Assembly: GCA_000004985.1 (NCBI GenBank)
Contig: GG738904.1
Strand: one strand, 5' to 3'
Source of the DNA: Naegleria gruberi
Lineage: Eukaryota
Length of the DNA stretch: 64,000 nt
In this document: piece by piece, positions 13,724 to 58,971 of the stretch
Numbering within the stretch: position 1 is the first letter of the stretch
Layout: every line of letters begins with the position of its first letter
Translations under genes and position numbers: made by a program
Notes under the pieces: generated by a model
The model's database searches: none
The model's input: the letters and a program-made list of their open reading frames with translations, nothing else
What the model was told of the DNA's origin: nothing

Positions 13724-14153
13724 CCCTAACCCAAACCCAAACCCAAAGCCAAACCCAAACCCAAACCCAAACCCAAACCCAAGCCCAAACCCAAACCCAA
13801 ACCCAAACCCAAACCCAAACCCAAACCCAAACCCAAACCCAAACCCAAACCCAAACCCAAACCCAAACCCAAACCCAAACCCAAACCCAAACCCAAACCC
13901 AAACCCAAACCCAACCCAAACCCAAACCCAAACCCAAACCCAAACCCAAACCCAAACCCAAACCCAAACCCAAACCCAAACCCAAACCCAAACCCAAACC
14001 CAAACCCAAACCCAAACCCAAACCCAAACCCAAACCCAAACCCAAACCCAAACCCAAACCCAAACCCAAACCCAAACCCAAACCCAAACCCAAACCCAAA
14101 CCCAAACCCAAACCCAAACCCAAACCCAAACCCAAACCCAAACCCAAACCCAA
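13724..14153. repeat. Internal telomere-repeat tract (CCCAAA)n, about 70 units, in the same orientation as the terminal tract, with a degenerate proximal boundary
   Basis: It starts CCCTAACCCAAACCCAAA immediately after the gap. Variant units CCCAAAGCC and CCCAAGCCC occur. It decays into telomere-like remnants (aaacccaacg, aaaccctagcccaaaa) at 14154-14210. Confidence 0.9.
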
Positions 14154-29300: not shown

Positions 29301-29539
29301 CTTTCCCAATTGATGTTTTCATTAAAGACGATAAGAGAGGAGAAAACCCAACATTGCCTTCAGTGGTTTCGTCAGATTCCCAACCAGCAATTTTTAATCC
29401 AAAATCACCACTTCCAAGTTTCCCTTTTGATCCATCTGATTCATTCTTGAAGAATAGTTTCTCATCACCACCAGCTTTTACAAATCCAACATCGAGCAGT
29501 TCATCCGAGAGTGGAGGTGGCATGAAGAGAGAACGTTAA
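26354..29539 (+). CDS. Large N/Q/S-rich low-complexity protein with a unique central core (about aa 540-760) and a C-terminal coiled-coil segment. It may be a nuclear regulator.
   Basis: Uninterrupted ORF of 1061 aa with poly-N, poly-Q and Ser/Pro-rich tracts. The complex-sequence core is YNSTLKVPEGIFSYDNTTLTCEPHGFKPNDRRGAPQTTHSVYVSDVLVVTCDLVNMSNQPG...QVIRFKGTEREHIIAVSDLFWIRSR. It also has a KKKRK-like basic patch. Confidence 0.5.
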   Translation: MDFNMQVSEQQVSVVLTHQPQSSSISEADNNNNNNTINNIDNNNNSNNNNNNIEEDNDNNNNIYMLSFNNSGLTPALPDPSPSPPLKSTVAVVGTSSQQQNMSKLYSSPPNNINNQLDYSPVRIRTINSATLPTNNNINNNNEDRSLMMTTTTSSSTAPPPPSSYQYPIPTRPTTTKSSSVNESNNMMEDNFPNTIESNVRTQEHSQQQTHYKSYHHNNEREGERASYYHHSYPSQNSIMMTNNHNIENWKGLKENSNNLSSAEIQKEQANLVYGTQYRQKNRSTQPPSSASYLGSVVEREERGDEEEEDYRVYHHQQQPQQQQYLRENYYPSHQGSSTTLPSTTSILLPSHEARNIQNYNNPSLQIINQKNTSTSSTSPSLNFATGSSSQQPLHGRRNSNYHLYDNNNYHQQHQYVERNNNNFPTTSLHQRTTPTTIAEYQVGAPSYSKQSSMQQQPFVIQPSMQPSSGIPSFHQVHSSSSATNSFHVPSNYQQHHHHQPPPPQHYQPLPPSSSSSSNYLNPPHQQQQQSSYSSPNSNQTNSSEPKLRVYNSTLKVPEGIFSYDNTTLTCEPHGFKPNDRRGAPQTTHSVYVSDVLVVTCDLVNMSNQPGVFQNCTARLVHLMGKNAKKKRKEGVSDQDDGLDSEDDDLDDGKKKKKKNKKKDQEDSLDGDFVTDFSQAGMLESFELLSEQPCQENVQKGKIVSSLKVPRVRGRDCKTKTGQIQVIRFKGTEREHIIAVSDLFWIRSRTRTEMEVRKFKKQQQQTPQQSLPSHQPPQQQPISVQSHETSNLSLHHHAQQLSHPPTIPSSSLNPPRENYHNPQWPNMPNIVQPNSPSTNEHAGLPPKKRRNNSPGGGNTPNTYRVPSNPAASIVHSSTGYFPSNNIQHQENGKVPNLHDSPSLSHHHHHVPYQPSRNEPTYHELLQRVHTLEEKLNRLESKLTRAGHLSPEFPMPPDSQTFSPFLPSSAIQPRPVEPPKTFAPFPIDVFIKDDKRGENPTLPSVVSSDSQPAIFNPKSPLPSFPFDPSDSFLKNSFSSPPAFTNPTSSSSSESGGGMKRER

Positions 29540-30122
29540 ATGAAGTGAAATAAAAAATTAATTGTAAATTCAAATATGAAAATTGAAGTTTAGTTTGTAA
29601 TATGTTTGAGAATCCAACAAGTTCAAAGATATTAATGGTCCTTCCACCTTGTGTGTCATGTACTCTAGTGTAAAAAAATCAAAAAGGCTGTGTGAAAAGT
29701 GAGCTTAACTTTACAACATGTGATCGTTCAATGCGTGCGTACGATCTCCGATCTATTGAGAAGAAACCAGTTGTTGAAAATTGCAAACTTGAAGATTTAA
29801 CGTTTCGAAAAAAAATTCATGAGTAGTAACAAGTAGGCCGCTAATTTGCTTGCTAGAAAAGACTCTGATCACACACTATGTAAGTCATCATTCTTAAATA
29901 TCTTGGCAAGATATTAATTTCTACATTTCACCAATTTGCTTGTAAAAATTTACAAATTGCAATTTTAATGATCCAATGATAATAATAATGATCATCATCC
30001 GATACCTAATTAACTTGATCATATTAATACTACCATGATCATCAATGATGATATTGTACACTTTGTATGCAAATTGTCGTGATGAAAAATCTTGTCAAAC
30101 ACTTTTGGATTAATTTCCAAAT

Positions 30123-32723
30123 ATGGACTCTTTAATATTGGTCCTTTTTCTTGCATTACTCTCTGTGTTGATCGTCACCAAAACACTCAATTGGTTCTTT
30201 CTCTATCAACATTCCATTCAATATTGCATTTCCTCTCCTTTCTTAACCCAATTGACCAAAATCTTGAAAAAATCGATGAAATTTCTTATTGGGCTCTTGT
30301 TGTTCTTTGTTTGTTATTCGTGGTATTCTTCTTTCAAAATACTTGCCATTGCTCCGAATGAAAACTTTGAAAAATCCTTGCAATATCGGAATGCTTCCTC
30401 TTTCCAATTTCATATCAAATCTTCCATCCTTGCTGCTTGTCTAAATTCCCACCACTCTAACAATGCAAATACTTGCAAATCTTCCTCCACTCATAACCAT
30501 CGTGCTGATGTTAATGATGCTGAACCAATTTTTGAACTTTCCTGTCGTTGCACAACTTTAAATCCGATGAATAATGATCCTTCTCTCACCACCAAAAACA
30601 ACCTCGACCAAATATTGCAACAATACCAAAATTCATTGACTTTGGACTCCCCGAATCAATCGACCACCCCCAACTACTACGGCTCTTGTTCTGTTACTGA
30701 CAATCGTGATGATGATGCTTCTGGTGCTTCTTCCTCTGCTTCTTCCTCTGCAACTGCTACCTTGATTAATACCAACCAAAATAGTACTAAAAACTCTCTC
30801 AAAGAAGTAGAAGAAAAAACAACAACTCCCTCCAAACAACTCTTAGAAATAATGAATAAGAACGACTTGTATGCACTTGCTCCAAATCACTTCCTCTACA
30901 ATCCAATGTTGAATAAGGATACCGCATTCACAGTGGAGGATCGTGAAAAATTGGGTCTTCGTGGATTGTTGCCACCACACGTTGAGACCATTACTCATCA
31001 ATTGGTGAGATGCTTGAGACAATTCCGTAACTTTAAAAATCCATTGGACAAGTATGTTTACTTGATGAGTTTGCAAGGTAGAAATCAAACCTTGTTCTTT
31101 AAATTGTTGATTGATAACATGGTTGAAATGTTGCCAATTGGTAAGTTGATGATAATAATTTTGCATTCCAAAGTTTTTAACACATTCTCTCTCATCTGTG
31201 TGAAATTTACTTGTTATTTTGCTTAATACAAATAATAATGCTTCGGAACCACCACAACAAAACACAACATTCATTTACCACTCTTTTTAACATTATAAAC
31301 AGTCTACACACCAACTGTTGGTGATGCTTGTCTTCAATTCGACCAAATTTGGAGAGTTGCTCAAGGCATGTACATCTCATTGGAAGATAAGGGATCAATT
31401 TCTGCAATTTTGAAGAATTGGGAACCAAAGCAACCAGATATTATTGTCGTTTCCGATGGTTCACGTATTTTGGGTCTTGGTGATTTGGGTGCTAATGGTA
31501 TGGGTATTCCAATTGGTAAATTGAATCTCTATGTTGCTGCTGCTGGTTTCCATCCAGATAAGACTTTGCCAATTTGCATTGATGTTGGTACTAACAATCC
31601 AGGATTGTTGGAAGATGATTTATATTTGGGATTGAAGAGAAAGCGTGTTCGTGGACAAGAATTCTTTGATTTCATGAAGGAATTTATGATTGCTGTCAAG
31701 ACTACATGGCCAAATTGTTTAGTCCAATTCGAAGATTTCTCAAATGATGTCTGTTTCGATTTATTGGATCAATATCGTAATGAACAATTGTGTTTCAATG
31801 ATGATATCCAAGGTACTGGTGCTGTCATTGTTGCTGGTTTCATCAATGCTGCCAAGATTACTGGTAAGAGAACTTATCAACACAAATTATTATTTATGGG
31901 AGCTGGTTCTGCTGCCACTGGTGTCGCTGATCAATGTGTTGGTGTCATGAAATTGCAAGCTGAAGAAGATGGATTGAGCAAGGAAGAAATTGATGCCATG
32001 TCTGAACATTGGGTTTATTTGGTCGATTCTAAGGGATTAGTTACACAAACTCGTTCTGATTACGAAGAAATGCCACATCACAAGAAGAAGTATGCCAAGA
32101 AGGGTGATGAAACTTTGGGTAACTTCCAATCCAAATCTCTTTTGGAAATTGTTCAAAAGACTCAACCAACTGCTCTCATTGGTCTCTGTGGTCAATCTGG
32201 TGTTTTCACTCAAGATATCATTGAAGAAATGGCCAAGATTAACCAAAAGCCAATCGTTTTTGCCTTGTCCAACCCAACTAAGAATTCTGAATGTACTGCC
32301 AAGGAAGCTATTGAATATTCAAGTGGAAGAGCTATCTTTGCTTCTGGTTCTCCATTCGAAGATGTTACTTACAATGGAAAGACTTATCAATTGAGTCAAG
32401 GTAACAATTTGTACATTTTCCCAGCTTTGGGTCTTGGTGCTGTCGTTACCAGATCAAAGCACGTTTCTGATGTTATGATTTTGAGAGCTGCTCAAACTTT
32501 GGCCGATCTCACAAGCCAAGATAGATTGGACAATGGATTGTTGTATCCAAGTTTGACAAATATCAGAGAAATTGCTCAAAAGATTGCTGTCCAAGTTGGT
32601 AAACAAAGTGTTAAGGAAGGTCTTTCTCAATTGACTGAAGAACAATTACCAAAATCTGAAGAAGAATGGGTTAAAATTGTTAAGGATTATGTATATACTC
32701 CAGATTATGAGTCCAAATTGTAA
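30123..32723 (+). CDS. Malic enzyme (NAD(P)-dependent malate dehydrogenase, decarboxylating) in 2 exons: ?-31140 and 31303-32723. The annotated start at 30123 is the start of the open frame; the true start is uncertain.
   Basis: Hallmarks: LYNPMLNKDTAFTVEDREKLGLRGLLPP...EMLPI|VYTPTVGDACLQFDQIW...GSRILGLGDLGANGMGIPIGKL...FEDFSNDVCFDLL...FNDDIQGTGAV...GAGSA. The intron is GTAAGT...ACAG (31141-31302) with phase 1 conserved. Confidence 0.8.
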
Positions 32724-33081
32724 ATATTTCAACAATTAATTTAAACCAACTATTATAAACATTTAATATTTCACTGATATTATTTCACACACTTTCAATA
32801 TATTCTCCATTCCAATCGCAACAGCGTCCAACCATACTCAATTCTGTCCAATTCTATCTAAATGCAACCTGAGGATCTCCTTCACAACCAAGCGCATCAA
32901 CCAAACACTAGTCCGACCAGCACTACGATCCTAGTGCACTTCAATTAATATCATGTCATGAAATCTCTCCACCGTATTACTTTTAAACAAAAAGAAAAAA
33001 AATCTCCAATTGTTAACTGTACAAATCTTTCATCTTTTTCCGAAAGTTAGAGAATAATTTGAAAGAGAAGGTGAACACAAA

Positions 33082-34095
33082 ATGACTAGTCAAGAGAGTA
33101 ATGATGGATCAATTTCCTATGGATGGTGGATTGCCACTCTTTTAATAGGAATTGTCCTGATGAGAATATTGCAATTAATTATGAAATTGAAAAGACAAAT
33201 AAGCAAGGCTGGTGGAACTCCTGGTTATTGGCAATTATTGGCTGAAGGCTTGTTTATCATGCCAATTCTTTCGCCCTATATTGCTCATGGTAATTTCCCA
33301 GTGATTCAAGGATTGATTGCTAAGGAGGAAGAGAGAGCTAAGGGAAGTGATGAAAAGCAATTGATTATTCGTGTCAGTACTCCCTATAGAAATAATTATG
33401 TAATTTGGGATAAGGATTCAGTGAAGGAAGTTTTAGTTACAAAATCATCATCCTTTCCAAAACCTTTGGATTTTTATGAACCTTTCAATATTTTCGATAA
33501 GGATGCTACTTCAATTTTGACAGCTGCCGATGGTCCAGTTTGGAAGAATCATAGACATGTGGTGGCTCCTTCATTCTCAACTGGTAATTTGGTTTTTATG
33601 AGTCAAGTGACTGTAAAGACAGTTGATGCATTGTTTAGAACAAAGTGGAATAAGTTATTGGACCAGGATAGTAAGGGATTCATTATGGATATGGAAGATA
33701 CTACAGCTGTCACTCTTCAAATTATTGGTGAAAGTGGATTTGGTATGGATTTTGGTGTTTTCGATGAAACTAGCTCTGATTCTAAAAAGTTTAGAGAAGC
33801 ATTGAATATTGTCGTGAGAGTTGACTATTATGCCAGATTCTTCCTTGCTAAAATCCCATTCCTTTACAATGCAGTTTCTGATTATACTGGAAATACAGAA
33901 GCTCTCAAGGTGATGAGTGAAAAGCTTGAACAATGCATTTCTCAAAGAGTAGCCGAATTCAAACAAGATCCAGAAAAACCAATGAATGATTTATTGTCGC
34001 TCCTTGTTAAGGCAAACATGATGGATGAAAAACTCACACTCAATGAATTGAAGAGTAACAGTTACATCTTCGTAGTTGCAGGTCATGAGTATTGA
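33082..34095 (+). pseudogene. Cytochrome P450, N-terminal half only. It ends at the I-helix ...FVVAGHE and then Y-stop because an insertion follows.
   Basis: N-terminal membrane anchor plus P450 fold up to AGHE (I-helix AGHETT). It is a paralog of the N-half of the P450 at 55239-56286 (shared ...SDAYIFS/VVAGHE). The reading frame hits TGA at 34093-95, right after CATGAG. Confidence 0.6.
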
Positions 34096-34618
34096 AAATC
34101 AGAAGGTGTTCTTAAAGATGGTCACTGGTGCCATCAATGGTTTGATTCGTGGATTTTGGTTAAAGATATTATTCCACTTGAAGAACATTCTTCAATTATT
34201 AGGAGATGTTACAGCATGCTATGTGGAAAGTACCGTTAATATTTCCAAAGATATTTTGGAAATGTACAGTTTCATAATGAAGGAATCATTTTTGGAAAGA
34301 TTAAATTCAAGAATTGAGGAGAGAAATCTTTTATGTATTGATTTTGAAATTGTTAACAATGGATTGGTAGATAGGAATGCAGAGTGTTTTAACTCATGGT
34401 ATGAAAATGTATCTAAACATCTTATTGATTGGTCAAGTAAGGCTGTAAGTAATCGATTTGCAGAGTTTACAGAGTTAGTGGATGAAATTTTTGGTCAAGT
34501 TAAGAATGATTATGCAATGATTGCTGATAAAACTATTGAAAAGAGAACAATGGAGTATAATTTTATTACTGAAAAGAAGAGAAGATTGACAGAATTGATC
34601 AAAGAGTTAAAAAAGTAG
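34085..34618 (+). CDS. Hypothetical protein of 177 aa, predicted helical. Its ATG is embedded in the P450 His-Glu codons (cATGag).
   Basis: ORF MSIENQKVFLKMVTGAINGLIRGFWLKILFHL...RLTELIKELKK in frame +2 relative to the P450. I recognise no domain. Confidence 0.3.
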   Translation: MSIENQKVFLKMVTGAINGLIRGFWLKILFHLKNILQLLGDVTACYVESTVNISKDILEMYSFIMKESFLERLNSRIEERNLLCIDFEIVNNGLVDRNAECFNSWYENVSKHLIDWSSKAVSNRFAEFTELVDEIFGQVKNDYAMIADKTIEKRTMEYNFITEKKRRLTELIKELKK

Positions 34619-34639
34619 ATTGGTAATGAGTAAATTGAA

Positions 34640-35060
34640 TTGTGTCTGTGCAATTCTGATTGTATTCTTGTAAAGTGGTGATGGTACCTGTCAGGTACCG
34701 TCACAGGTACTTGGCAGGTACGATTTTTACCATCACAGGTACCGTCACAGGTACTTGGCAGGTATCACAGGTACCATCAGGTACCATCAGGTACCATCAC
34801 AGGTACCGTCACAGGTGCAAATGGTACCTGACAAGTACAATCACAGGTACCGTCACAGGTATCTGAATTTCCTCACAGGTACCATCACAGGTACTTGGCA
34901 GGTATCACAGGTACCATCACAGGTACCATCACAGGTACCGTCACAAGTACTTGGACCATCACAAGTACCCTTACAAGGACTTGTAAGGTGCTCAACACGT
35001 ACCTACAGTGTCTGACAAGTATGGTACCTCACAATAACCATCACAGCTACAACAAACACC
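34640..35060. repeat. Imperfect tandem minisatellite, about 20 units of CACAGGTACC(A/G)TCA or CAGGTACTTGG, each centred on a KpnI palindrome GGTACC. It begins with an inverted unit that can form a hairpin.
   Basis: Repeated caggtaccatca and caggtaccgtcacaggtacttggcaggtat. At 34676-34710, tgatggtacctgtca is the reverse complement of tgacaggtaccatca. It lies between the convergent 3' ends of ORF 34085-34618 and gene 35100-36299. Confidence 0.85.
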
Positions 35061-35099
35061 ATAACAAATACTTTTTATATCTCCTCCAATCAACTATAT

Positions 35100-36299
35100 T
35101 TATTTGAAATATTTGGATTTCTTAATAGGTCTATGGACATTATGATCATTTTCTGAATCAGAACTAATACCACCTCTATCTGAAGAATCTTCTTCAACAT
35201 CTTCTTCTTCATCATCCTCTTCAACTTCACAATGATCAGCATTTCCAAAGCAAATATTGTACCAAATTGGAGGACCTTCATCAGACTTGTTACAATCATC
35301 TTTATCCATTTGCTTTTCAAAGAATAACTCCATTTCAAAGGCATCAAGTTCTTCATTCAATTGAATAACATCCTTAACAGGTGGTTCTATGATGGCTTCC
35401 TCTTCAATATAACCATTCTCATTGTAACGATTGATGAGAAGAACTGTTTCCTTTGAGGTGTCAAATATCTCTTCTTCCTCCTTCTCATTAAAATCAATAC
35501 TTTCATCATCTGCTATAGTTGCAGATTCCTTCTTTTCATACTCCACAATTAAATTCAAACCACTAACATCTGGTTTGATTACAAGACTGGAAAGCGTGTC
35601 TTCATTTAGAGATGGCAAATCATCATATGGGAAAACAATACTTTGAGTTTCACTAACGGATGAGTATCCATCTTGATCTGCTCTAGCCATTTCGACAGAA
35701 TCATCATCAGTGAGTGCATCATCTTCTGTTAGAATCAATGGTTCATTAAATACATCAACTTGTTCTTCCATCTGAGTTTCTGCACTTGATATAATCAATA
35801 AAGGTTGAACCAATTCATATCTCTCATTGGTGTAAGAGTAAAGGTCAATGTCATCATTGTTTAATAACAAGTTTAACAATGTTGAATTACTAGTCTGTGA
35901 AAGCACTTTTCCCTTCTTACTAAACTCTCCAACAAATGCTTGGAAATTGAATTCACTATTACATTGTTCCAACTCTTTGAAATAAATCAAAGAAGGGTTC
36001 ATTTCAAGTAAATCTGCCAAATCTTCTAATTTACTATCCATGGATAAAAAGTCATCATGCTTCTTCTCCTTAAAAATCAAAAGTAAGAGACAAAGTGCAA
36101 AATAATCACAAGAGTAATCTGCTGATAATCCATTAATATCATCTTGATTGATAGGATCGTTACCAAGCCAAAAAGATGTCAATTCCTTCCTTAGCTTGAT
36201 ATCCAAATAACAGAAATCACTGACAACTTCACTATAAAATTTCTTCTTTACTAATTCTTCTACTAAACACCACTTGTTGAAATATGTATTGTACAACAT
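35100..36299 (-). CDS. Hypothetical acidic (D/E-rich) protein of 399 aa, divergently transcribed from the Myb-LAGLIDADG gene
   Basis: Uninterrupted ORF MLYNTYFNKWCLVEELVKKKFYSEVVSDF...EEDDEEEDVEEDSSDRGGISSDSENDHNVHRPIKKSKYFK. I recognise no domain. It shares a 345-bp promoter region (36300-36644, containing (AT)8 and CACAC..CTCGAG..GTGTG) with the downstream + gene. Confidence 0.45.
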   Translation of the reverse strand: MLYNTYFNKWCLVEELVKKKFYSEVVSDFCYLDIKLRKELTSFWLGNDPINQDDINGLSADYSCDYFALCLLLLIFKEKKHDDFLSMDSKLEDLADLLEMNPSLIYFKELEQCNSEFNFQAFVGEFSKKGKVLSQTSNSTLLNLLLNNDDIDLYSYTNERYELVQPLLIISSAETQMEEQVDVFNEPLILTEDDALTDDDSVEMARADQDGYSSVSETQSIVFPYDDLPSLNEDTLSSLVIKPDVSGLNLIVEYEKKESATIADDESIDFNEKEEEEIFDTSKETVLLINRYNENGYIEEEAIIEPPVKDVIQLNEELDAFEMELFFEKQMDKDDCNKSDEGPPIWYNICFGNADHCEVEEDDEEEDVEEDSSDRGGISSDSENDHNVHRPIKKSKYFK

Positions 36300-36644
36300 G
36301 ATGGATTATTCCTTTTTTTTCAAAAACAAAAGCTTTCACACAACCTCGAGTCGTGTGAAATGTCTCACACTCTAATATTTTAATATTTTTATAAGGCTTG
36401 AATATATATATATATATATTGAAAAGGGATTGACCGAAACTGGAAGACACATTAATTGGATATCTAAAGAGACCAAACAAATTTTCCTCAGAATTGAAGA
36501 GTCACGTCGCTACGTCCCTCAAGACATCCACACAACTTTGCAAATTAATACAATTGAGAAAAAAAAACTACTTTTATTTTCGACTCAACTTTGTTACAAG
36601 TAACAACACACATCAAATTCCAACACAGAACTCAATATAGCAGA

Positions 36645-38966
36645 ATGATAAGAAAAAACTGGTTAAAAGAAGAAGAAGATCTTTTGGTCAAATTGGTAAA
36701 GGAAAAAGGCCACAATTGGACTGAAATTGCTCCCAACTTCGATGTTACTCCAAATGCCTGCCACAAAAAGTATAAGGATTTGTTAAAGAATCTTGGCAGG
36801 AAAAGATCGTTCTGGACTGATGAAATGAAAGCTAATCTCCTTAAATTAGCAAAAGAATATGCCGATAAAGGAATAGAGAAATGGAAGATTATTGAGGAAA
36901 AATTAGGAAAAGAAGCTAAAGCTTGCCAACAGCATTTTTATTATTTAGTCAAACAGCACGGGTTGGATTCTAATGATTTCAACAGCGTCAGACCATTTTG
37001 GACCATGGAAGAGAAGCGCGAATTGACTGAGTTAGTCAATTTGCATGGAAGGAAGTGGAAGAAAATTGAGAAACTAATTAGCTGCAACAGAGATGCTCAT
37101 TCTTGTCAGAGCCAGTTTATGCTATTAGAAAGTAGACAGAATGATCCAATTGAAAAGAAGTTGAACGATATCTTTCAAGCAACGACTTCAGAGACAGATT
37201 TGAATGAAATCTCTCTTTACGAATTCTTCAATATCCCAACAAGTAGATACAATGGGGTTCCAGCATCGACTTTGTTGGTGGATCAAGCAGATGAAGTTGA
37301 TGAAGAAACATTTCATCGTTCTTACATGGCTGGAGATACTGAATTTAGTGTACGTGAGGTTGCAACTGGTAGATTGGTCAGAAAAACCATTGAGGAGATT
37401 TATCTTTCCAGTGGAACATATGAAACATATAGTATTGAATCTGGATTTAATGTGGAAGAAATTGGTAAGTTTCGTTTCAATTACTATTTTCAAAGAATAA
37501 TAATAATGAAAGAATGTAAATTGTTTCCAGCAAATGAAGTATTAGAGTTGAGTGCTACTTGTTTCAAAGCAAAATTATATTTCAATGAATGTGCTCGAAT
37601 TGTTGAAGAGAAACGTTTCATATTTTCCGAACAAGTTCAAGTCCGTCCAGATGAGTGCAGTAGTGTGAGATTACCTGTATCAGATCTTCAAGACAATATG
37701 TTCATCATTAATAACTATCAATTGAAATCCAAGGAAAAGCTTGTAAGAACATCATTACCATGTGGTCAACTTACTGACACCACCCAAACAAAAGAATGTA
37801 AGTATTTTATGAATTATTCTCATAATATTTTAAAGATTTTGACATTTTGTTCAGAACTTTCCCAACTCTAGTTGACTCCAAAGACAAACAGGGAGTCATG
37901 GTTCAACTATTGGGAGCCTATTTAGCAGATGGTGATGGAGGATACTTTAAATTGTATTTTAATGCCAAAAATGAGCAAGAACTTACCTATTATTTTACAG
38001 ATTTCTTAAAAGAAATTTGTGAATTGAATTCAGAGACAATAAGAGAGGATCTTAAATTCAAGAAAGAGGAAGAGTATGTCACCATTAAGCTCAATGATAA
38101 GAATGCTGACAAGGATATTGAACGAGTCTTACAAAATGGTTATCAAATATCCGGGTCCATACTTGTTGCACCTGCATGGTATGTTTTTCACTTTCAATAC
38201 ATTTTTACTAGTAACAAATAGTACTGGCTTACACAGATTTTTAAAAGAAATAGAATTGTTATGTAATAAGTATAATGGCAGTTACCAAACTAGAAAGAAT
38301 TTCTCTTCCATCTTCAACATTACAAATTTTGGTATGTTTAGCTTGTACAAATTTTTCGAAGGTTCTGTACAAGGAGATGGCACATTAGAGAGTAATCGTG
38401 TAACGTTTGGTCAGAATTGTTCAATTTCAGATACTCACCAACAGTACTTTAATCAGGTCCACCATTGTGCAACCATGCTTGGGTTAAAGACTGGCGTGGG
38501 TAAAGTGTGTGAAGAAACTACAGGTTTGAAAATGACTGGTAAGAACATGACCATTTTTGAAAGTGAAGGACTTGAGAAAAAGAAAGTAAATGCAGATGTT
38601 GTGTTTAGACCATTTAATCTTACAGTTCAAAGATTAATAGGTGAATCAATGAAGAAGATGTACTGTTTCAAGAAGAGTAATCACTCCTTCCCAATGTTTA
38701 ATGGAATGATAGTGCAAAATGTTGATACTGATCTAGTTTCTGCTAAAATATGTTATGGGAATAGATGGGAAATTCGTGAAATGGACAACTATGAATCTGC
38801 TGCCACTTTCTGCTTGAAGAAATATATTGCTTCCTTAGGGTTTCCAAGTGACCGTATGACAAGAAATGCTGTAAGAAGATTAATACTAAAAATAGAAGGA
38901 ATAGTATCTGTTAAAAGAAAGCAAAAATCAAACAAGGAATCAAACAAGAAAGTTAAAACACAATAA
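36645..38966 (+). CDS. Fusion protein with three N-terminal Myb/SANT-type repeats and a C-terminal two-motif LAGLIDADG endonuclease-like domain. Exons: 36645-37464 (or read-through), 37531-37801, 37855-38178, 38222-38966.
   Basis: Myb repeats: WLKEEEDLLVKLVKEKGHNWTEIAPNF..Y, FWTDEMKANLLKLAKEYADKGIEKWKIIEEKL..F, FWTMEEKRELTELVNLHGRKWKKIEKL..F, with W-x18-22-W-x18-(Y/F) spacing. LAGLIDADG motif 1: VMVQLLGAYLADGDGGYFKLYF (37907-37945). Motif 2, about 130 aa later: SLYKFFEGSVQGDGTLESNRVTF (about 38352-38390). Introns: GTAAGT..CAG (37465-37530, in-frame and optional), GTATTT..TTCAG (37802-37854), GTATGT..ATAG (38179-38221, short). Confidence 0.5.
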
Positions 38967-39085
38967 CATTTCAATTAAAGAATATATTTACTGAACTTTA
39001 TTAAATGACTTTTTATTTCTGAATAAACAAAAGTATATTGAGCACTTTTGCATCCATTTGAAAATTGACAATCATTTCTGCTGAA

Positions 39086-39162
39086 ATGGTCATGTAAGAA
39101 GTATGAATTATGTCATTCTGGAAACTCTTCGTATTCATCCACCTGTAACATGTGTTTAGAGT
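39086..39162 (+). pseudogene. Degenerate P450 K-helix fragment (..NGHVRSMNYVILETLRIHPPVTCV*) just inside the right end of the insertion
   Basis: ETLRIHPP matches the P450 ExxR / HPP K-helix consensus. MNYV matches the paralog at 56520-56560 (IMNYVNAVIMET), not the adjacent C-half (MDYIHGCVMECLRLHPPV). It is out of order for a P450, which runs I-helix then K-helix. Confidence 0.45.
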
Positions 39163-39178
39163 TGCTAAGAAGACAACC

Positions 39179-39842
39179 ACATGAGGTTCGTGTTTTATAA
39201 TTAATTTTACAAGTGTTTAACAAAATATTTAAGACGACTGCCACAACCATGCAATGGTTAATGTACGAATTGTCCAAGCGTCCAGAAGCTCAACAAAAGG
39301 CCAGAGAAGAAGCAATCAGAATTGGAGGAGGTGACAATGTTTTGAGAGCTCCAGATTTTGATGATTACAACAATATGGACTATATTCATGGTTGTGTAAT
39401 GGAATGCTTACGTCTCCATCCACCAGTCGTTTCCATGGTAAAAACCTGTGCCAAATCTACCAAAATTGGAAAAACAAGCATTCCAAAGGGATCTTGCATC
39501 TATGTAAATGCCAAGGCCTGTCACTTGTACGGTGAAGATTTTAACACCACTGAATTTACTGGTGCTCAATTCGCTCCAGAAAGATTTTTGGATAAGGATT
39601 TCAAACAAAAGGTTCAAACAAGTGGAGCATGGTTCCCATTCAATATGAGTAATAGAAAATGCATTGGTTACATGTTTGCCCAAATTGAATTGTGTATCAT
39701 GTTGTGTAGAATGTTGCAATTTTATGAATTCAAATTGTTGAATGATGAAAGTAAACCAGCTGAGAAGGTTGAAGATCTTCCTGGTATTACCTTTAGACCA
39801 TCTTCTAATTTGAAGGTTTTGGTAACAAGAAGAACAAAATAA
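39179..39842 (+). CDS. Cytochrome P450 C-terminal half. A 7-nt micro-exon ACATGAG (39179-39185, the His-Glu of AGHETT) is followed by a GTTCGT..TTTAAG intron (39186-39233) and exon 39234-39842 (TTATTMQWLMYEL...heme loop FPFNMSNRKCIGYMFA).
   Basis: Contains ECLRLHPP (ExxR), PERF and FxxxxxRxCxG (FNMSNRKCIG). Together with 33082-34089 it would form a complete P450 if the insertion were absent. Confidence 0.6.
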
Positions 39843-39964
39843 ATATGAATGTGTAAATATTTATTATACTTAATATATTTAAATTATTGAAATATTGAAA
39901 TATTGAAATTGTAAAGTTTTTAAATAGTTTAAAAATAGAGTTTACAATTTTAAAAAAATAAAAA

Positions 39965-41035
39965 ATGTCTGATGACCAAAAACAAGAAGAAATTGCTTCG
40001 GAAGAAACCATGGAACATATCGCCCAACTGATCAACAAGGCAAGAAGAGTCGTTGTATTTTCTGGTGCTGGTATGAGTGCAGAGTCTGGAATTGATACTT
40101 TCAGAGGAGGAGGTGGTTTATGGACCGGATTGATGGGAAAATTGTTTTTGGCTTATGGAGGTGAGTGGATTTGTCTTTAAATTCGTGTTTATATATATTG
40201 GATATATTGGATTGTATTTAAAATTATTAAAATTATTTAAATATTATTTGATGGTAATTGATTGGAATAATTTATAAATTAATTATTCGTGTGATGATTA
40301 TATGAATGAATGAATTGATGGAATATGATAATATTAGGAACACCATTTGGATGGAATATAACACCACAGATTTGTTGGGGACAATATATTAAACGATTTT
40401 ATGGACCGATTGCTAAAGCTGATCCAAATAATGGACATTTTGCATTGGCCAAGTTGGAACAAGAAGTGTTTGGAGATTATATGGAAGTTATTACACAAAA
40501 TGTTGATGGATTGCATCAAAGAGCTGGATCAACTCATGTCTATGAAGTGCATGGTACAGTAATGAGACATTGCTGTATTGCTGAACGTCACATTTTCGAT
40601 TTTGATGAATATTGGGGAGAAGAGAATGATGAAAAGAAAATGGACTTGCCAGACAAGTCACCAAAATGCAAACATCCAGGGTGTAATAGTACACTTCGTC
40701 CTGATTGTGTCCTATTTACAGAAGCCCTGCCAATGGACCAATGGGAACCTTCTTTCCATGCAGTTGACAGAATGAGAAAGGGAGATGTCATGATTTGTGT
40801 TGGAACAAGTGCCAAGGTCTATCCAGCTGCTTCACTTCCTGGAAGAGCTGCCAGAAGAGGAGCTCATTTAATTGAATTCAATTTGGAAGAAACAGATTAC
40901 AATCAATTACCGAATTATATATTCGTTAAGGGTCCAAGTGGTCAAACACTTCCAACCATTGTAGATAGAGTAATTGAATTGAGAAATGCAAATCAATCAA
41001 TACCATCGGAAAATATTTCTCAAATTGTAGAATAA
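39965..41035 (+). CDS. Sir2-family NAD-dependent protein deacylase (sirtuin), 2 exons: 39965-40160 and 40338-41035
   Basis: GAGMSAESGIDTFRG (Rossmann / GAGISxxxGIPxFR), QNVDGLHQRAGS, HG, a Zn ribbon (C..C...CKHPGC..LRPDCV) and GTSAKVYPAA. The intron is GTGAGT...ATTAG (40161-40337) in phase 1. Confidence 0.8.
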
Positions 41036-55238: not shown

Positions 55239-56928
55239 ATGGCTTTAAGCGAAATTATTTTGGGAATTGTTTGCGTTTTTGCTGCAATTCTTCTCTTCTT
55301 CCTCATTTCAATTTATAATAATTATAAGAAAGTGAGTCACATTCCAGGTGCTTTCCAATTCTTCTTGACTTTTAAGAATATTCCAATCATTTCACCTTAT
55401 TTGAGTTTCGATGGACACAAGAGAATGGAACAATTGGTCAAAACTCACGGAGATCCAAAAACTGGACTTGTCAGATTATCCATGTTCGATAGAAATATGG
55501 TTGTAGTTTCAGATAGAGACATGTTGAAGGAATTGTTGGTCGTTAAGGGTGGAATTTTCATCAAATCTTGGAAATTATATGAAGTTTTCAATGCTTTCGG
55601 CAAGAATATCTTATCAATTCTCGATGGTACCAGTGATTCATGGAAAAATCATCACAAAGTAGCTTCAGGTGCTTTTGCTTCTAAAAATTTGGAATACATG
55701 TCAAGAGTTGCCTCAAAATCTTTGGATTTGTGTAAGGAAAGTAAATGGGATGGTGAAATGGAAAAGGCATTGAAGGAAGGAAAGGAAGGTATTATTATTG
55801 ATACCAATGCTGATTTTAGTGATATTACTTTGGGTAAGTTTCGAATTTTGACATTGTCATGTTGACCTTTCGAATAATAGACGTTCTTGGTAAGGCTGCT
55901 TTCGGTTTGGACTTTTCCATCTTTGATGAAACTAACCCAGAAGGTAGAATTTTCAGAAAATCCCTCGAAAAGATGTTTACCACTGGTGTAATCTTAAAAC
56001 GTTTCGTCGGATTAAATCCAGTCCTTTCCTGGGCTTTCCCATGGGCTTGCAAATATACTGGTTTAGATAAGGCAGTAAAAGTTGTGAGTGATAAGTTGGA
56101 TGCAATCATTGCGGAAAGAACTCGTGAAGTAGAATTGCGTGGAATGGAAGATGGAAACACATCCGAAACTGGTGTTGAAGAAAGAAAGGATTTGTTGAGT
56201 GTTTTGGTTGAAGCCAATTTCATTCAAAAGGGAATCTTGTCAGGTGATGAACTCAAATCTGACGCTTATATCTTTTCGCTTGCTGGGTATGTATTCGAAT
56301 TTTAAACTATTTGTCCTAATTTATTTTCATAGACATGAGGTTCGTATTTGCAAATTTACAATTTTTTGTAATGATTTTTTTATTTGAAATTTTAGACAAC
56401 TTCAACAACTTTACAATGGGTTTGTTACGAATTATCAACAAAACCAGATATTCAAAATAAGATTCGTGAAGAGATTGATTTACATCTCGGAAAGGGTGTA
56501 AATGCCAGAGCTCCAAACTTTGACGATTATCCAATTATGAACTATGTCAATGCTGTCATTATGGAAACTGCAAATAGAAGTGATCGAAACTGGGATAAAC
56601 CTTTAGAATTCATTCCAGAAAGATATCCAATGAATGCTGAAGAACAATTGAGAATTCAACATGATTTCACTTGGATTCCATTCTCTATGGGTAATCGTAA
56701 ATGCATTGTAAGTACTTTTTGAAAATTTCACAAGTTTACAAAATTTTTCAGGGTTTCAAGTTTGCTCAAATTGAAGCTTTTACAATTCTTGTAAGATTAC
56801 TTCAATTCTATGAATTAGGATTGGATAATGATGAATCTAATCCAAAGGATCAAATTGTTGATGTTCCTGGCGTTACAGTTCGTCCAGGAAATTGTAGAAT
56901 TATTCTCAAACCAAGAAAGGATCTTTAA
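55239..56928 (+). CDS. Cytochrome P450 paralog, 5 exons including a 7-nt micro-exon: 55239-55833, 55881-56286, 56333-56339, 56396-56707, 56752-56928. It lacks the K-helix/ExxR segment and may be a pseudogene or a divergent P450.
   Basis: ...YIFSLAG|HE|TTSTTLQWVCYEL...FSMGNRKCIG|FKFAQIE. The micro-exon ACATGAG is flanked by GTATGT..ATAG and GTTCGT..TTAG introns. Relative to 39234-39842 about 38 aa are missing (LHPPVV...HLYGED), which leaves METANRSD where ExxR should be. Confidence 0.55.
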
Positions 56929-57579
56929 TTTCGAATACAATTTTGTAAATAGTAAAAATAAATAAAATAATTTAATTCATAATATTGTTGATGATACAGT
57001 GGAGGTTGAAAATGCAATTACAAGTTGTGGTTGTTTGAAAATTTATGGAGCTTGTCAGAGGGTAAATACTGACATGTACAGTTGACAAGATCTTGAGTAA
57101 TAATGAAGATCTTTTGGAGTTTAGAATCAATTTTGTTAACACTTACAATTGGATGTTTCTCATCCTCTTCGATCTGAGCTTTACAGCAAGTAATATTTCC
57201 AAAAATAGCTATTGTTTGCAATGTTAAAAAAATTAATGAGACACATTTTCGATATTTTGTTTAAAATTACCTCAAATGCAAGGTGGAAAAACAAAATTAT
57301 TTCTTTTAAGGTCTAAGTGTTTCATAATATGTCTGTTGCCAACAACCTGCCAATCCACTACAAATTAAATCTGCACAGCTTTTGAAAATAACATTTTGCG
57401 TCTAAACCACACGCCCCAACAAAAAAAATGCAACAAACAAGAATGCTTCACTCATCACCCAACCATTCCCACAACACCAACAACAAAAAAATCACAATAT
57501 TAATTCATCATGAGCAAAGGTATAAACAAATCATCAGTAAGTAACCATATAAACAAGTACTCTAATAATTATAAAAGAA

Positions 57580-58389: not shown

Positions 58390-58399
58390 TAAATAATTT

Positions 58400-58879: not shown

Positions 58880-58887
58880 TTTGTCAG

Positions 58888-58966: not shown

Positions 58967-58971
58967 GAAAA

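What the first reader, a model, noticed from the sequence alone, without database searches (positions are those of the whole stretch)
33082..39842. A cytochrome P450 gene is split exactly at its conserved I-helix codons by a 5.1-kb cargo insertion flanked by duplicated CATGAG
The P450 N-half ends ...GCA GGT CAT GAG (AGHE) and is then out of frame. About 5.09 kb downstream, ACATGAG + GTTCGT...TTTAAG intron + ACG ACT GCC (TTATT...) resumes the same P450. The intact paralog at 56281-56400 has exactly this HE micro-exon / intron / TT architecture. So the insert (34090-39179) sits precisely after the His-Glu codons, with CATGAG present on both sides like a target-site duplication.

The AGHETT site is the single most conserved DNA stretch across P450 paralogs. 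It is therefore an ideal homing or targeting site for a selfish element that could spread through a multigene family. The insert has no terminal inverted repeats.
Basis: partly seen in the sequence, partly recalled or inferred. Interest (0 to 1): 0.85.

Follow-up and report, generated by a model that had tools for sequence, protein, structure and literature searches.

The report
Endonuclease-like cassette splitting a P450 gene
In this strain of the amoeba Naegleria gruberi, a 5.1-kb multi-copy gene cassette sits exactly in the most conserved codons of a cytochrome P450 gene; a sister strain lacks it there, and because it encodes a Myb-domain protein with homing-endonuclease-like motifs it may be a non-fungal counterpart of yeast HO/WHO homing elements, though nuclease activity is unproven.

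Summary
The window is subtelomeric Naegleria gruberi nuclear DNA. The split is real. P450-A (33082-34089 plus 39234-39842) is broken between the Glu and Thr codons of AGHETT.

A contig from a ~2%-diverged strain (L003) gives the empty site. The insertion is 34090-39233 (5,144 bp). It includes the second CATGAG and the 48-nt "intron", so CATGAG is not a target-site duplication. P450-A is otherwise intronless.

The insert carries three ORFs. One is a 4-exon gene for 3 Myb repeats plus a region with two LAGLIDADG-like motifs and an intein-like C-terminal block. Motif 1 is statistically strong. Pfam and hhalign are sub-threshold, and AlphaFold failed.

A second copy of at least two of its genes lies elsewhere in the genome (399-aa ORF 98.7% identical). 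A truncated 89% copy exists in the other strain.

The insert's right end holds decayed pieces of a B-type P450. Ten of the 55 substitutions across 8 kb fall in the 27 nt around the insertion point.

Best reading: the cassette was copied in by recombinational break repair, not transposition, possibly as HO/WHO-like homing. The main rival is nuclease-independent ectopic repair.

The parts
33082..34089 (+). P450-A N-terminal part (336 codons, ends AGHE). It runs into TAT TGA at 34090-34095.
   Evidence: Annotated as D2VW97. 98% identical to the uninterrupted allele on L003.
34066..34089 (+). Left part of a hyper-divergent patch. Nine of 24 nt differ from the empty allele. A tenth difference lies at 39236, just right of the insert.
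   Evidence: Ten of the 55 substitutions in an 8-kb alignment fall in this single 30-nt window. Within the coding sequence the binomial P is 8.6e-16.
34090..39233 (+). Inserted DNA (5,144 bp), absent from the sister-strain allele. The boundary has a 1-nt ambiguity.
   Evidence: L003 and L004 align to ...34088 and then to 39234.... Orthologs in N. lovaniensis and N. fowleri are uninterrupted at this site.
34085..34618 (+). 177-codon ORF of unknown function. Its ATG is the ATG inside the left CATGAG.
   Evidence: No family hit. Not in the protein collection. By my estimate, a stop-free run of this length in 34% GC DNA is unlikely by chance (inference).
34683..34950 (.). Tandem array with a 12-nt unit (TACCATCACAGG) and a 44-nt higher order, rich in GGTACC. 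It lies between two convergent ORFs.
   Evidence: Conserved in the truncated copy L005 from the other strain.
35100..36299 (-). 399-aa acidic protein gene of unknown function (D2VW99).
   Evidence: The paralog D2V8Z9 on a 573-kb scaffold differs at 5 of 399 residues.
36645..38966 (+). Gene for the Myb plus LAGLIDADG-like protein (724 aa, D2VWA0). Exons: 36645-37464, 37531-37797, 37836-38178, 38222-38966. It is transcribed divergently from the 399-aa gene.
   Evidence: The spliced model equals P0001 exactly. Pfam Myb hits have E=3.8e-20 and 5.9e-20.
36654..37124 (+). Three Myb/SANT repeats (aa 4-160).
   Evidence: best solved relatives are Reb1, c-Myb and SNAPc4.
37907..37942 (+). LAGLIDADG-like motif 1 (LLGAYLADGDGG, aa 387-398).
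   Evidence: A PSSM built from nine PDB-verified motifs scores the best-scoring 12-residue window here, GAYLADGDGGYF (aa 389-400, nt 37913-37948), at 24.6 bits, with 0 hits in 4e7 random positions. In the canonical LAGLIDADG register, which the distant paralog P0071 shares, P0001 (aa 387-398) scores only 6.1 bits (3.5e-4 per position) and P0071 scores 16.8 bits.
38352..38387 (+). LAGLIDADG-like motif 2 (FFEGSVQGDGTL, aa 521-532).
   Evidence: Weak by PSSM: 3.4 bits, 1.3e-3 per position. It is the stretch that gives the sub-threshold Pfam Hom_end PF05204 hit, E=0.034-0.17. hhalign aligns it to PI-SceI motif 2.
38700..38720 (+). Intein block-G-like NGMIVQN (aa 637-643). It is followed by Val, not Cys/Ser/Thr.
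   Evidence: hhalign ends here on the last residues of PI-SceI, NQVVVHN. The pattern occurs at 2.8e-6 per random position.
39095..39180 (+). Frameshifted remnant of a B-type P450 K-helix (MNYV..ETLRIHPPVT.V.RVAKKTTT).
   Evidence: 85.6% identical over 90 nt to the intact P450-B of the other strain (L006 762-851), and 92% over the last 62 nt.
39179..39233 (+). ACATGAG plus a 48-nt GT..AG intron-like segment. The first 13 nt are identical to the P450-B micro-exon and the start of its intron 2. All of it is absent from the empty allele.
   Evidence: The intron interiors are not similar.
39234..39842 (+). P450-A C-terminal part (TTATT... to the stop codon). Annotated separately as D2VWA1, starting at MQWLMYELSK.
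   Evidence: (98.8% identical to L003).
55239..56928 (+). Paralog P450-B (D2VWB0), for comparison only. It has the micro-exon 56333-56339 and, in this strain, a 111-nt in-frame deletion at 56568/56569.

Best explanation
A 5.1-kb, Naegleria gruberi-specific, multi-copy gene cassette was copied into the intronless P450-A gene of this strain. It landed exactly between the Glu and Thr codons of AGHETT.

The cassette holds three units: a 177-codon ORF, a 399-aa acidic protein gene, and a 4-exon gene for a protein with three Myb repeats plus an intein/HO-like region carrying two LAGLIDADG-like motifs.

The copying was recombinational repair of a double-strand break (gene conversion or templated synthesis from another copy). 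It was not cut-and-paste transposition.

The donor copy was already next to a B-type P450. This is why a decayed K-helix fragment and an 'HE micro-exon + intron start' travelled with the cassette. It also accounts for a 27-nt stretch around the junction differing at 10 positions from the empty allele.

The prime suspect for making the break at the I-helix codons is the cassette's own Myb-LAGLIDADG-like protein. On that reading this is a homing-like element analogous to yeast HO/WHO elements. Here, however, it inactivates a redundant family member instead of preserving the host gene.

Shown:
- the insertion polymorphism, its exact limits and its gene content;
- that the cassette is multi-copy;
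- the P450-B-type remnants;
- the divergent patch.

Inferred:
- the repair mechanism;
- which allele's patch is the derived one.

Hypothesis:
- nuclease activity and specificity for the I-helix DNA.
For: Insertion and empty site:
- L003/L004 from a ~2%-diverged strain are collinear with window 26557-34088 and 39234-39661, with the malic-enzyme gene upstream.
- The N. lovaniensis and N. fowleri orthologs are uninterrupted at this site.

No transposon hallmarks:
- No terminal inverted repeats.
- No target-site duplication at the true boundaries.
- No transposase, reverse transcriptase or ribozyme.

Multi-copy family:
- The 399-aa gene and the Myb gene have paralogs with consecutive accessions (D2V8Z9, D2V8Z8) on a 573-kb scaffold. 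They are 98.7% and 95% identical.
- A truncated 89% copy exists in the other strain.
- A 33% paralog, P0071, keeps motif 1.

P450 debris at the right end:
- The K-helix remnant is 86-92% identical to P450-B, while the strains differ by only ~2%. It was therefore already old when it was copied.
- ACATGAGGTTCGT is shared only with P450-B.

Patch:
- Ten of 55 substitutions in 8 kb fall in one 30-nt window at the junction. Six are synonymous changes spread over seven consecutive codons. P=8.6e-16.

Nuclease-like protein:
- The best-scoring window at motif 1 reaches 24.6 bits (0 in 4e7 random positions) and P0071 reaches 16.8 bits. In the register P0071 shares, P0001 scores only 6.1 bits.
- The block-G-like NGMIVQN pattern occurs at 2.8e-6 per position.
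- The motifs are collinear with PI-SceI, and the alignment ends on its last residue.
- The top sub-threshold Pfam family is Hom_end, the VDE/HO domain.

Precedent:
- WHO elements have host-gene fragments beside the nuclease gene and diversification of a 28-bp target.
Against: Weak support for the nuclease domain:
- No standard method places the C-terminal region in a LAGLIDADG or Hint family. Pfam Hom_end scores 12.5-14.7 bits against a cut-off of 21.1.
- Noise hits with similar E-values appeared in NCBIfam and PHROGs.
- hhalign E-values are 0.015-0.3.
- PDB sequence and profile searches find only the Myb part.
- Both AlphaFold runs failed, with pLDDT 34-35.
- Motif 2 is weak.

Other points:
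- The host gene is broken, unlike in classic homing.
- The cassette carries two extra genes of unknown role.
- The direction of the patch is unresolved. 'YIF' in the filled allele matches the orthologs, and the empty allele's 'YVM' looks derived.
- The left patch is only 17/24 identical to P450-B (my reading of the sequences).
- The region is subtelomeric, where ectopic repair is common without any dedicated nuclease.
- The DNA around the second copy could not be obtained.
Confidence: 0.45

Rival explanations
1. Nuclease-independent ectopic repair. A chance break in subtelomeric P450-A was repaired by microhomology-mediated synthesis or gene conversion. The template was a paralogous P450 locus where an ordinary gene pair (a Myb transcription factor and an acidic protein) happens to lie between P450 remnants. 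The conserved I-helix sequence supplied only the homology. The cassette is then a segmental duplicate, not a selfish element.
For: - The location is subtelomeric, with telomere-like (CCCAAA)n arrays at 1-300 and 13724-14170.
- The right end is a patchwork joined at a 2-nt AC overlap.
- The left junction coincides with a 6-nt CATGAG that is also the start of the 177-codon ORF, so it could be a microhomology.
- There is a second indel polymorphism nearby and a deletion in P450-B.
- The nuclease assignment is below threshold in every standard search.
Against: - At least three cassette-derived copies of different ages exist (98.7%, 89%), plus a 33% paralog of the Myb gene alone. This looks like a proliferating family.
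- The same I-helix point is involved in two different P450 lineages, A-type and B-type.
- Motif 1 and the block-G-like pattern are individually very unlikely by chance.
- The Myb-nuclease-like gene differs between the copies about four times as much as its neighbour, 5% against 1.3%.
Confidence: 0.3
2. One reading: a transposon-like element inserted with a 6-bp CATGAG target-site duplication into an allele that already had an intron right after HE. The sister strain would then have lost the element, one CATGAG and the intron together, and have acquired the patch.
For: - CATGAG is present at 34084-34089 and 39180-39185.
- An intron in this phase exists in P450-B.
- The filled allele's YIF matches the orthologs.
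Against: - The empty allele has neither the intron nor CATGAG.
- P450-A has no other intron in either strain.
- The orthologs' intron lies 8 nt further 3'.
- Directly upstream of the right CATGAG is B-type K-helix debris, not element sequence.
- There are no terminal inverted repeats and no transposase.
- The model needs an exact triple loss in the other strain.
Confidence: 0.07
3. The 5.1 kb is an ordinary long spliceosomal intron, or a nested-gene intron, that is removed to give an intact P450 mRNA.
For: - A GT lies at 34089 (GA|GTATTG) and an AG at 39232-39233.
Against: - That donor/acceptor pair loses one base and shifts the reading frame.
- No other canonical pair restores AGHETT (my reading).
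- The annotation splits the gene into two products, with three other gene models between them by locus-tag numbering.
- The sister strain and two sister species lack the segment.
- Known introns in this region are 38-66 nt long.
Confidence: 0.01
4. Assembly artefact: a chimeric join in the reference scaffold.
For: - The scaffold has large N gaps elsewhere.
Against: - There are no Ns between 33000 and 40000.
- Both junctions fall at the same codon boundary of one gene.
- The flanks are collinear with an independent assembly.
Confidence: 0.02

Closest known systems
Yeast WHO elements and the HO endonuclease (Coughlan et al. 2020, PMC7282813; Osborne et al. 2026 preprint, 10.64898/2026.08.13.744650)
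   Same: - A free-standing nuclear gene for an intein-derived LAGLIDADG protein, without exteins, fused to an extra DNA-binding domain.
- The gene sits at a conserved site of a host gene.
- Fragments of the host gene family lie beside the nuclease gene.
- Presence or absence varies between strains.
- There is a short stretch of extreme allelic divergence of about recognition-site length: 27 nt here, 28 bp for WHO6.
- Family members diverge fast.
   Different: - The added domain is three N-terminal Myb repeats, not a C-terminal zinc finger.
- A block-G-like C-terminus is retained here, whereas WHO and HO lack motif G.
- The host ORF is broken rather than given a replacement 3' half.
- Two extra genes and a tandem repeat travel with the cassette.
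- The host is a member of a multigene family in a heterolobosean amoeba.
- There is no detectable sequence homology to WHO or HO by standard searches.
- Cleavage is untested.
VDE / PI-SceI intein in VMA1 (PDB 1VDE, 1DFA)
   Same: - The order of elements is the same: two LAGLIDADG motifs, then a C-terminal ...hhVxN block at a similar spacing (121 aa here, 135 aa in PI-SceI).
- The weak hhalign alignment ends on the last residue of PI-SceI.
   Different: - It is not an in-frame insertion in a host protein.
- There is no N-terminal Cys/Ser, the penultimate His is Gln, and the +1 residue is Val, so protein splicing is not possible.
- The gene has its own promoter and three spliceosomal introns.
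Intron-borne homing endonuclease genes (group I/II introns, including the His-Cys box enzymes of Naegleria rDNA introns)
   Same: - It sits at a highly conserved site of a host gene.
- Alleles with and without it both exist.
- The flanks look co-converted.
   Different: - No ribozyme was found (Rfam search).
- The insert cannot be removed from the mRNA.
- The motifs are of the LAGLIDADG type, not the His-Cys box type.
Target-specific DNA transposons with short target-site duplications (e.g. Dada, IS3EU; from my own knowledge)
   Same: - Insertion into a conserved multi-copy gene.
- An apparent 6-bp repeat.
   Different: - No terminal inverted repeats and no DDE transposase.
- The 6-bp repeat does not bracket the inserted DNA once the empty site is known.
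Templated insertions and segmental duplications from microhomology-mediated break repair in subtelomeres (from my own knowledge)
   Same: - A patchwork of short ectopic pieces at one junction.
- Very short junction overlaps.
- A subtelomeric setting.
   Different: - The copied unit is a family with copies of several ages.
- It encodes a nuclease-like protein.
- The same codon boundary is involved in two P450 lineages.

Membership tests
LAGLIDADG homing endonucleases | Two LAGLIDADG motifs, each ending in an acidic residue followed by Gly, about 100-140 residues apart in a single chain. | tested here: met
   Motif 1, LLGAYLADGDGG, scores 24.6 bits on a PSSM of nine PDB-verified motifs in its best register (GAYLADGDGGYF), with 0 hits in 4e7 random positions, and 6.1 bits in the canonical register. 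Paralog P0071 scores 16.8 bits. Motif 2, FFEGSVQGDGTL, lies 134 aa downstream and scores only 3.4 bits, which is within the range of true weak motifs (-1 to 7.6 bits).
LAGLIDADG homing endonucleases | Match to a curated family model at its own threshold. | tested here: not met
   The best hit is Pfam PF05204 Hom_end at 12.5-14.7 bits against a cut-off of 21.1. NCBIfam, PHROGs and the PDB gave nothing.
LAGLIDADG homing endonucleases | The alpha-beta-beta-alpha-beta-beta-alpha fold. | tested here: inconclusive
   Two AlphaFold2 runs gave pLDDT 34.4 and 35.1, so no fold search was attempted. Only three homologs exist to build an alignment.
LAGLIDADG homing endonucleases | Site-specific double-strand cleavage of the insertion-free target. 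| not testable with these tools
   This needs protein expression and a cleavage assay on L003-type and reconstructed reference-type I-helix DNA.
Inteins (Hint domain) | An N-terminal Cys/Ser nucleophile, a C-terminal His-Asn, and a +1 Cys/Ser/Thr. Together these mean in-frame residence in a host protein and protein splicing. | tested here: not met
   The C-terminal block reads NGMIVQN followed by Val. No Cys or Ser sits at the candidate N-terminal block (YMAGDTEF). The flanks are Myb repeats and a basic tail, not a split host protein.
HO/WHO-type elements (intein-derived nuclease with no exteins plus an added DNA-binding domain) | An intein-like region fused to a DNA-binding domain in a free-standing nuclear gene. 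| tested here: inconclusive
   The architecture is analogous (Myb x3 + LAGLIDADG-like x2 + a block-G-like end). Homology to HO, WHO or VDE is not significant: hhalign E=0.09-0.12. The DNA-binding domain is of a different type.
Homing genetic elements in general | Filled and empty alleles exist at the same site in a population. | tested here: met
   The window is the filled allele. L003/L004, from run ERR1078381, are the empty allele.
Homing genetic elements in general | Co-conversion of flanking host sequence. | tested here: inconclusive
   A 27-nt patch with 10 differences abuts the insert. Which allele carries the derived patch is unresolved.
Homing genetic elements in general | Host gene function is preserved (by splicing, or by a replacement gene half). 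| tested here: not met
   A stop codon lies 2 codons into the insert. No in-frame canonical splice exists. There is no replacement C-terminal half.
Cut-and-paste DNA transposons | Terminal inverted repeats, a target-site duplication at the true boundaries, and a transposase. | tested here: not met
Group I/II introns | A ribozyme core. | tested here: not met
   Rfam gave no hit at gathering thresholds in 33000-40000.
Spliceosomal intron | GT..AG boundaries whose removal restores the reading frame. | tested here: not met
   The only GT/AG pair at the ends (34089 / 39233) removes one base too many.

The most novel reading that the evidence does not exclude
This could be the first homing-type element outside fungi of the 'third category', meaning neither an intron nor an intein. 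It would be a free-standing, intein-derived LAGLIDADG nuclease that has acquired Myb repeats as its DNA-recognition module.

On this reading it cuts the contiguous DNA that encodes the P450 I-helix signature AGHETT. It then spreads by gene conversion between alleles and also between paralogs of a multigene family, dragging pieces of earlier P450 hosts with it.

Two other observations would then be host-side escape from the nuclease:
- the 27-nt hyper-divergent patch in the empty allele;
- the 7-nt micro-exon architecture of B-type P450s, which leaves no contiguous AGHETT-coding DNA.
Probability: 0.3. Interest if true: 0.85.

Novelty: new variant of a known kind. Interest (0 to 1): 0.62.

Why it matters
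**If the nuclease reading holds**
- HO/WHO-like homing elements would not be a yeast oddity. They would have arisen, or spread, in a distant eukaryotic lineage with a different DNA-binding module.
- A conserved enzyme motif shared by a whole gene family could serve as a homing target. That would be a route to paralog-to-paralog spread and to pseudogenisation of family members.
- It would offer a natural Myb-LAGLIDADG fusion as a template for engineered nucleases.
- It would suggest a selective reason for odd micro-exon structures at conserved motifs.

**If the nuclease reading fails**
- The locus is still a cleanly resolved example of a strain-polymorphic templated insertion.
- Its filled allele, empty allele, orthologs and passenger debris are all in hand.

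Tried and rejected
**Fetching DNA around the second cassette copy.** Exact look-ups of the N. gruberi proteins P0001, P0002, P0072, P0003 and P0078 all returned nothing. The decisive comparison could therefore not be made.

**Looking for relatives elsewhere.**
- An exhaustive phmmer search with the C-terminal 544 aa found only two N. gruberi paralogs.
- Scans of metagenome and viral contigs with the family alignment found nothing.
- A metagenome scan with a left-junction DNA pattern found nothing.

**Assigning the C-terminal region to a family.**
- PDB phmmer and profile searches found only the Myb part.
- Pfam on the whole protein and on sub-segments gave only sub-threshold Hom_end hits.
- NCBIfam and PHROGs gave only noise hits at E=0.002-0.03. 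This shows that the Hom_end E-value alone is not evidence.
- hhalign against PI-SceI, I-OnuI, I-AniI, I-CreI and I-SceI, with shuffle controls, was at best 1 of 60 shuffles for I-OnuI and 5 of 60 for PI-SceI.
- Two AlphaFold2 jobs failed, so no fold search was run.

**Homology of the 48-nt intron-like segment to P450-B intron 2.** Beyond the first ~10 nt it is no better than shuffled sequence, and no other source for it exists in the window.

**Ideas rejected.**
- A Helitron, retrotransposon or Crypton: no matching termini or enzymes.
- A group I/II intron.
- That the K-helix remnant is the piece missing from the reference P450-B: it is 8-14% diverged and frameshifted, and it overlaps sequence that P450-B still has.

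**Literature.** Searches found no prior description of this locus or of this domain fusion.

Full report
**Source and setting**

The window is nuclear DNA of Naegleria gruberi. The gene at 36645-38966 translates exactly to the annotated protein D2VWA0. Four other products in the window also equal annotated N. gruberi proteins.

The window begins with a (CCCAAA)n telomere-like array. A second such array lies at 13.7-14.2 kb, and there are large N gaps, so the region is subtelomeric. Overall GC is about 34%, and the introns seen here are 38-66 nt long.

**Checking the observation**

- A P450 ORF starts at 33082 and reads ...GTA GTT GCA GGT CAT GAG, followed by TAT TGA.
- At 39234 the sequence ACG ACT GCC ACA ACC... 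continues the same protein to a stop codon at 39842.
- Joining 33082-34089 to 39234-39842 gives a 538-aa protein. It has an end-to-end Pfam p450 match (E=3.9e-63), with ExxR, PERF and the heme loop all present.
- The reference annotation treats the halves as two proteins, D2VW97 and D2VWA1. By locus-tag numbering (NAEGRDRAFT_73304 to 73308), three gene models lie between them.
- CATGAG occurs at 34084-34089 and at 39180-39185.
- No terminal inverted repeats were found.

So the split is real and it lies at the AGHE|TT codon boundary.

**The empty site changes the anatomy**

The 90%-identity cluster of the N-terminal-half protein contains a 478-aa product, P0075, from public run ERR1078381. Its contigs are L003 (7,990 nt, ENA assembly) and L004 (Logan assembly of the same run).

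- They align to window 26557-34088 at 98.0% identity, and then directly to 39234-39661 at 98.8%.
- The malic-enzyme gene lies upstream in both, so the locus is the same.
- This allele comes from a strain about 2% diverged, and in it P450-A is uninterrupted.
- It reads ...TAC GTC ATG GTT ATT GCC GGC CAC GAA ACT ACT GCC ACA ACC....

The inserted DNA is therefore 34090-39233, which is 5,144 bp with a 1-nt ambiguity at the boundary.

The empty allele has neither. P450-A has no other intron in either strain.

The closest orthologs are in N. lovaniensis (61% identity) and N. fowleri (59%). Both are uninterrupted at this site, and their nearest intron lies 8 nt further 3' (GGA CAT GAA ACA ACA AG|gtaagt). 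The insertion is therefore the derived state. CATGAG is not a target-site duplication that brackets it.

**What the insert contains**

1. A 177-codon ORF (34085-34618) whose ATG is the ATG inside the left CATGAG. It has no homologs.
2. A tandem array with a 12-nt unit and a 44-nt higher order, at 34683-34950.
3. A 399-aa acidic protein gene on the minus strand (35100-36299, D2VW99).
4. A 4-exon gene (36645-38966, 724 aa), transcribed divergently from item 3.
5. After a short 3' untranslated stretch, an 86-nt frameshifted P450 fragment (39095-39180), then ACATGAG, then the 48-nt intron-like segment.

Rfam finds no ribozyme in the region. No transposase or reverse transcriptase is detectable.

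**The 724-aa protein**

Residues 4-160 are three Myb repeats. The Pfam E-values are 3.8e-20 and 5.9e-20, and the best solved relatives are Reb1, c-Myb and SNAPc4.

The remaining 540 residues are an orphan. An exhaustive search of 1.84 billion cluster representatives found only two N. gruberi paralogs: P0002 (95% identical) and P0071 (33% identical).

By eye the region has the layout of an intein-derived LAGLIDADG enzyme:
- LLGAYLADGDGG at aa 387;
- FFEGSVQGDGTL at aa 521;
- ...HSFPMFNGMIVQN ending at aa 643.

I tested this reading in four ways.

1. *Standard searches fail.*
   - Pfam's best family for the motif-2 segment is Hom_end PF05204, which is the VDE/HO nuclease domain. The score is only 12.5-14.7 bits against a cut-off of 21.1.
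   - NCBIfam and PHROGs gave unrelated hits with equally 'good' E-values, so that number alone means little.
   - PDB sequence and profile searches see only the Myb part.

2. *hhalign against PI-SceI.*
   - hhalign gives a collinear alignment of both motifs that ends on the final residues of PI-SceI (HSFPMFNGMIVQN against HQFLLANQVVVHN).
   - The E-values are only 0.09-0.12.
   - Shuffle controls put PI-SceI at 5 of 60 and I-OnuI at 1 of 60. I-CreI, I-AniI and I-SceI are at chance level.

3. *A position-specific scoring matrix.*
   - I built it from nine motifs taken from five PDB-verified enzymes.
   - The best-scoring window at motif 1 (GAYLADGDGGYF, shifted 2 residues from the canonical register) scores 24.6 bits. 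There were no such hits in 4e7 random positions or in 39,000 positions of Naegleria ORFs.
   - In the canonical register, which the homologous P0071 motif occupies, P0001 scores only 6.1 bits (3.5e-4 per position) and P0071 scores 16.8 bits (5.5e-7 per position).
   - Motif 2 scores 3.4 bits (1.3e-3 per position). That is inside the leave-one-out range of true motifs, -1 to 27.6 bits, but it is weak.

4. *A generous intein block-G pattern.* It occurs at 2.8e-6 per random position and is found once in the protein, 121 aa after motif 2. The corresponding spacing in PI-SceI is 135 aa.

Both AlphaFold2 runs failed (pLDDT 34-35) because no alignment depth exists. No fold comparison was therefore possible.

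My estimate is about 0.7 that this is a diverged LAGLIDADG/Hint-derived domain. It cannot be a splicing intein: it has no N-terminal nucleophile, it has Gln in place of the penultimate His, and Val follows the terminal Asn.

**The cassette is a repeated family**

- The 399-aa protein has a paralog, D2V8Z9, on a 573-kb scaffold. It differs at 5 of 399 residues.
- The Myb protein's paralog, D2V8Z8, has the adjacent accession and lies on the same scaffold. It differs at 28 of 557 aligned residues.
- The annotated model of D2V8Z8 lacks three segments, including motif 1.
- The other strain carries a truncated copy that is 89% identical. It covers the tandem array plus the 3' third of the 399-aa gene and is joined to unrelated DNA (L005).
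- P0071 is a much older paralog that retains motif 1.
- No relative was found in N. fowleri, N. lovaniensis, Willaertia, metagenome contigs or viral contigs.

**P450 debris inside the insert**

A second contig from the other strain, L006, covers P450-B. There P450-B is intact...MNYVNAVIMETLRIHPPVTSVLRVAKKTTTLGEF....

- Window 39095-39180 matches this K-helix region at 85.6% over 90 nt, and at 92% over the last 62 nt. The window copy has two frameshifts.
- The strains differ by only about 2%. The remnant was therefore already old, or came from a B-like paralog, when the cassette entered P450-A. It travelled as a passenger.
- The homology stops at ...ACAACCAC. The sequence then continues ATGAGGTTCGT, which overlaps by AC with the P450-B micro-exon and the start of its intron 2.
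- ACATGAGGTTCGT occurs only at these two places in the window, against 0.04 expected.
- The interiors of the two intron-like segments are unrelated.

**The patch**

- Within the 1,436 aligned coding positions the two alleles differ at 19 sites. Ten of these lie in the 27 nt around the insertion point (34066-34089 and 39236).
- Six of the ten are synonymous third-position changes, spread over seven consecutive codons. The other four produce I/V, F/M and V/I differences.
- The binomial P is 8.6e-16.
- Across the whole 8-kb alignment there are 55 substitutions. This 30-nt window holds 10 of them, and the next-richest window holds 4.

Such a tract is what co-conversion from a diverged donor produces. 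It is also what diversification of a nuclease target looks like.

Which allele carries the derived patch is not settled. The orthologs read YIFVIAGHE, the filled allele YIFVVAGHE and the empty allele YVMVIAGHE.

**Mechanism**

The data exclude four readings:
- a normal intron, because no in-frame canonical splice exists and the segment is absent from a sister strain and from two sister species;
- a transposon with terminal inverted repeats and a target-site duplication;
- a group I or group II intron;
- an assembly error.

The data fit recombinational break repair that copied a pre-existing cassette, together with P450 flanks, from another P450-associated copy.

Two versions of this remain.

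*Version 1, which I favour slightly (0.45).* This is a homing-like process in which the cassette's own Myb-LAGLIDADG-like protein makes the break in I-helix DNA. In its favour:
- the nuclease-like signatures;
- a family with copies of several ages;
- the involvement of the same codon boundary in both an A-type and a B-type P450;
- a patch of about recognition-site length;
- the greater divergence of the nuclease-like gene than of its neighbour between the two copies.

*Version 2, the rival (0.30).* This is nuclease-independent, microhomology-driven ectopic repair in a subtelomere, with the conserved I-helix acting only as the homology.

**Comparison with known systems**

The closest analogues are the yeast WHO elements and HO. 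These share several features with the locus here:
- They are free-standing, intein-derived LAGLIDADG proteins fused to a DNA-binding domain.
- They reside at a conserved host gene.
- Host-gene fragments lie beside them.
- A 28-bp target is under diversifying selection.

The case here differs in several respects:
- the added domain is Myb, at the N-terminus;
- a block-G-like end is retained;
- there are two extra genes and a repeat array;
- the host ORF is broken rather than repaired;
- the host is a member of a gene family;
- the lineage is a heterolobosean amoeba.

Membership in the LAGLIDADG family is supported by motif statistics but not by curated thresholds or by structure. Membership among inteins is ruled out. 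Membership among classic homing elements fails on preservation of host function.

I found no earlier description in the literature library.

**Verdict**

- I rate it a new variant of a known kind, conditional on the nuclease reading, with interest 0.62.

Noticed in passing
window 1-300 and 13724-14170: (CCCAAA)n telomere-like arrays lie at the start of the window and again after a 6.2-kb N gap. The window is a scaffold end or subtelomere, and the internal array may reflect scaffolding of two telomeric contigs.
   Followed up: partly
window 56568/56569 (P450-B, 55239-56928): The reference P450-B has an in-frame 111-nt deletion. It removes LRIHPPVTSVLRVAKKTTTLGEFTIPKDTAVQINILA, which includes the ExxR arginine. 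The other strain (L006 795-904) keeps this segment. The deletion is flanked by a 1-nt repeat.
   Followed up: yes
window 57356-62913: A 5.56-kb segment is absent from the other strain's contig L006, which joins 57355 directly to 62914. It contains a histone-H3-like ORF (58972-59532) with a KTPSKTS-repeat tail, ORFs at 57730-58389 and 58400-59005 (minus strand), and a large ORF that runs across an N gap. This is a second presence/absence polymorphism only 17 kb from the first.
   Followed up: partly
window 56568-57355 vs L006 905-1658: The 3' part of P450-B and its downstream DNA are 93.9% identical between the strains. The 5' part is 98.2% identical, and 62914-64000 is 99.7% identical. This is locally elevated divergence that begins at the K-helix.
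   Followed up: no
L005 1-1097 (other strain): A truncated, 89%-identical copy of part of the cassette (window 34836-35403). At L005 position 485/486 it is joined to 485 nt of unrelated, apparently non-coding DNA.
   Followed up: partly
window 56287-56395: P450-B has no contiguous DNA that encodes AGHETT. A 7-nt micro-exon sits between introns of 46 and 56 nt, and this arrangement is conserved in the other strain. This would hide the site from any protein that reads the contiguous I-helix DNA (speculation).
   Followed up: no
window 34683-34950: A GGTACC-rich tandem array with a 12-nt unit and a 44-nt higher order lies between the convergent 177-codon and 399-codon ORFs. It is conserved in the diverged copy L005. 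Its function is unknown; it could be a binding array.
   Followed up: no
P0002 (D2V8Z8) vs P0001: The annotated second copy of the Myb-nuclease-like protein lacks residues 42-113 (one Myb repeat), 364-418 (including LAGLIDADG-like motif 1) and 478-517. It also has a run of five changed residues in a row (aa 304-308). This suggests either a decaying copy or artefacts of the gene model.
   Followed up: partly
L001 4813-5883 (N. lovaniensis): A DDE_3 (PF13358) transposase-like gene lies about 4 kb upstream of the orthologous P450 in N. lovaniensis. It is unrelated to the cassette studied here.
   Followed up: no
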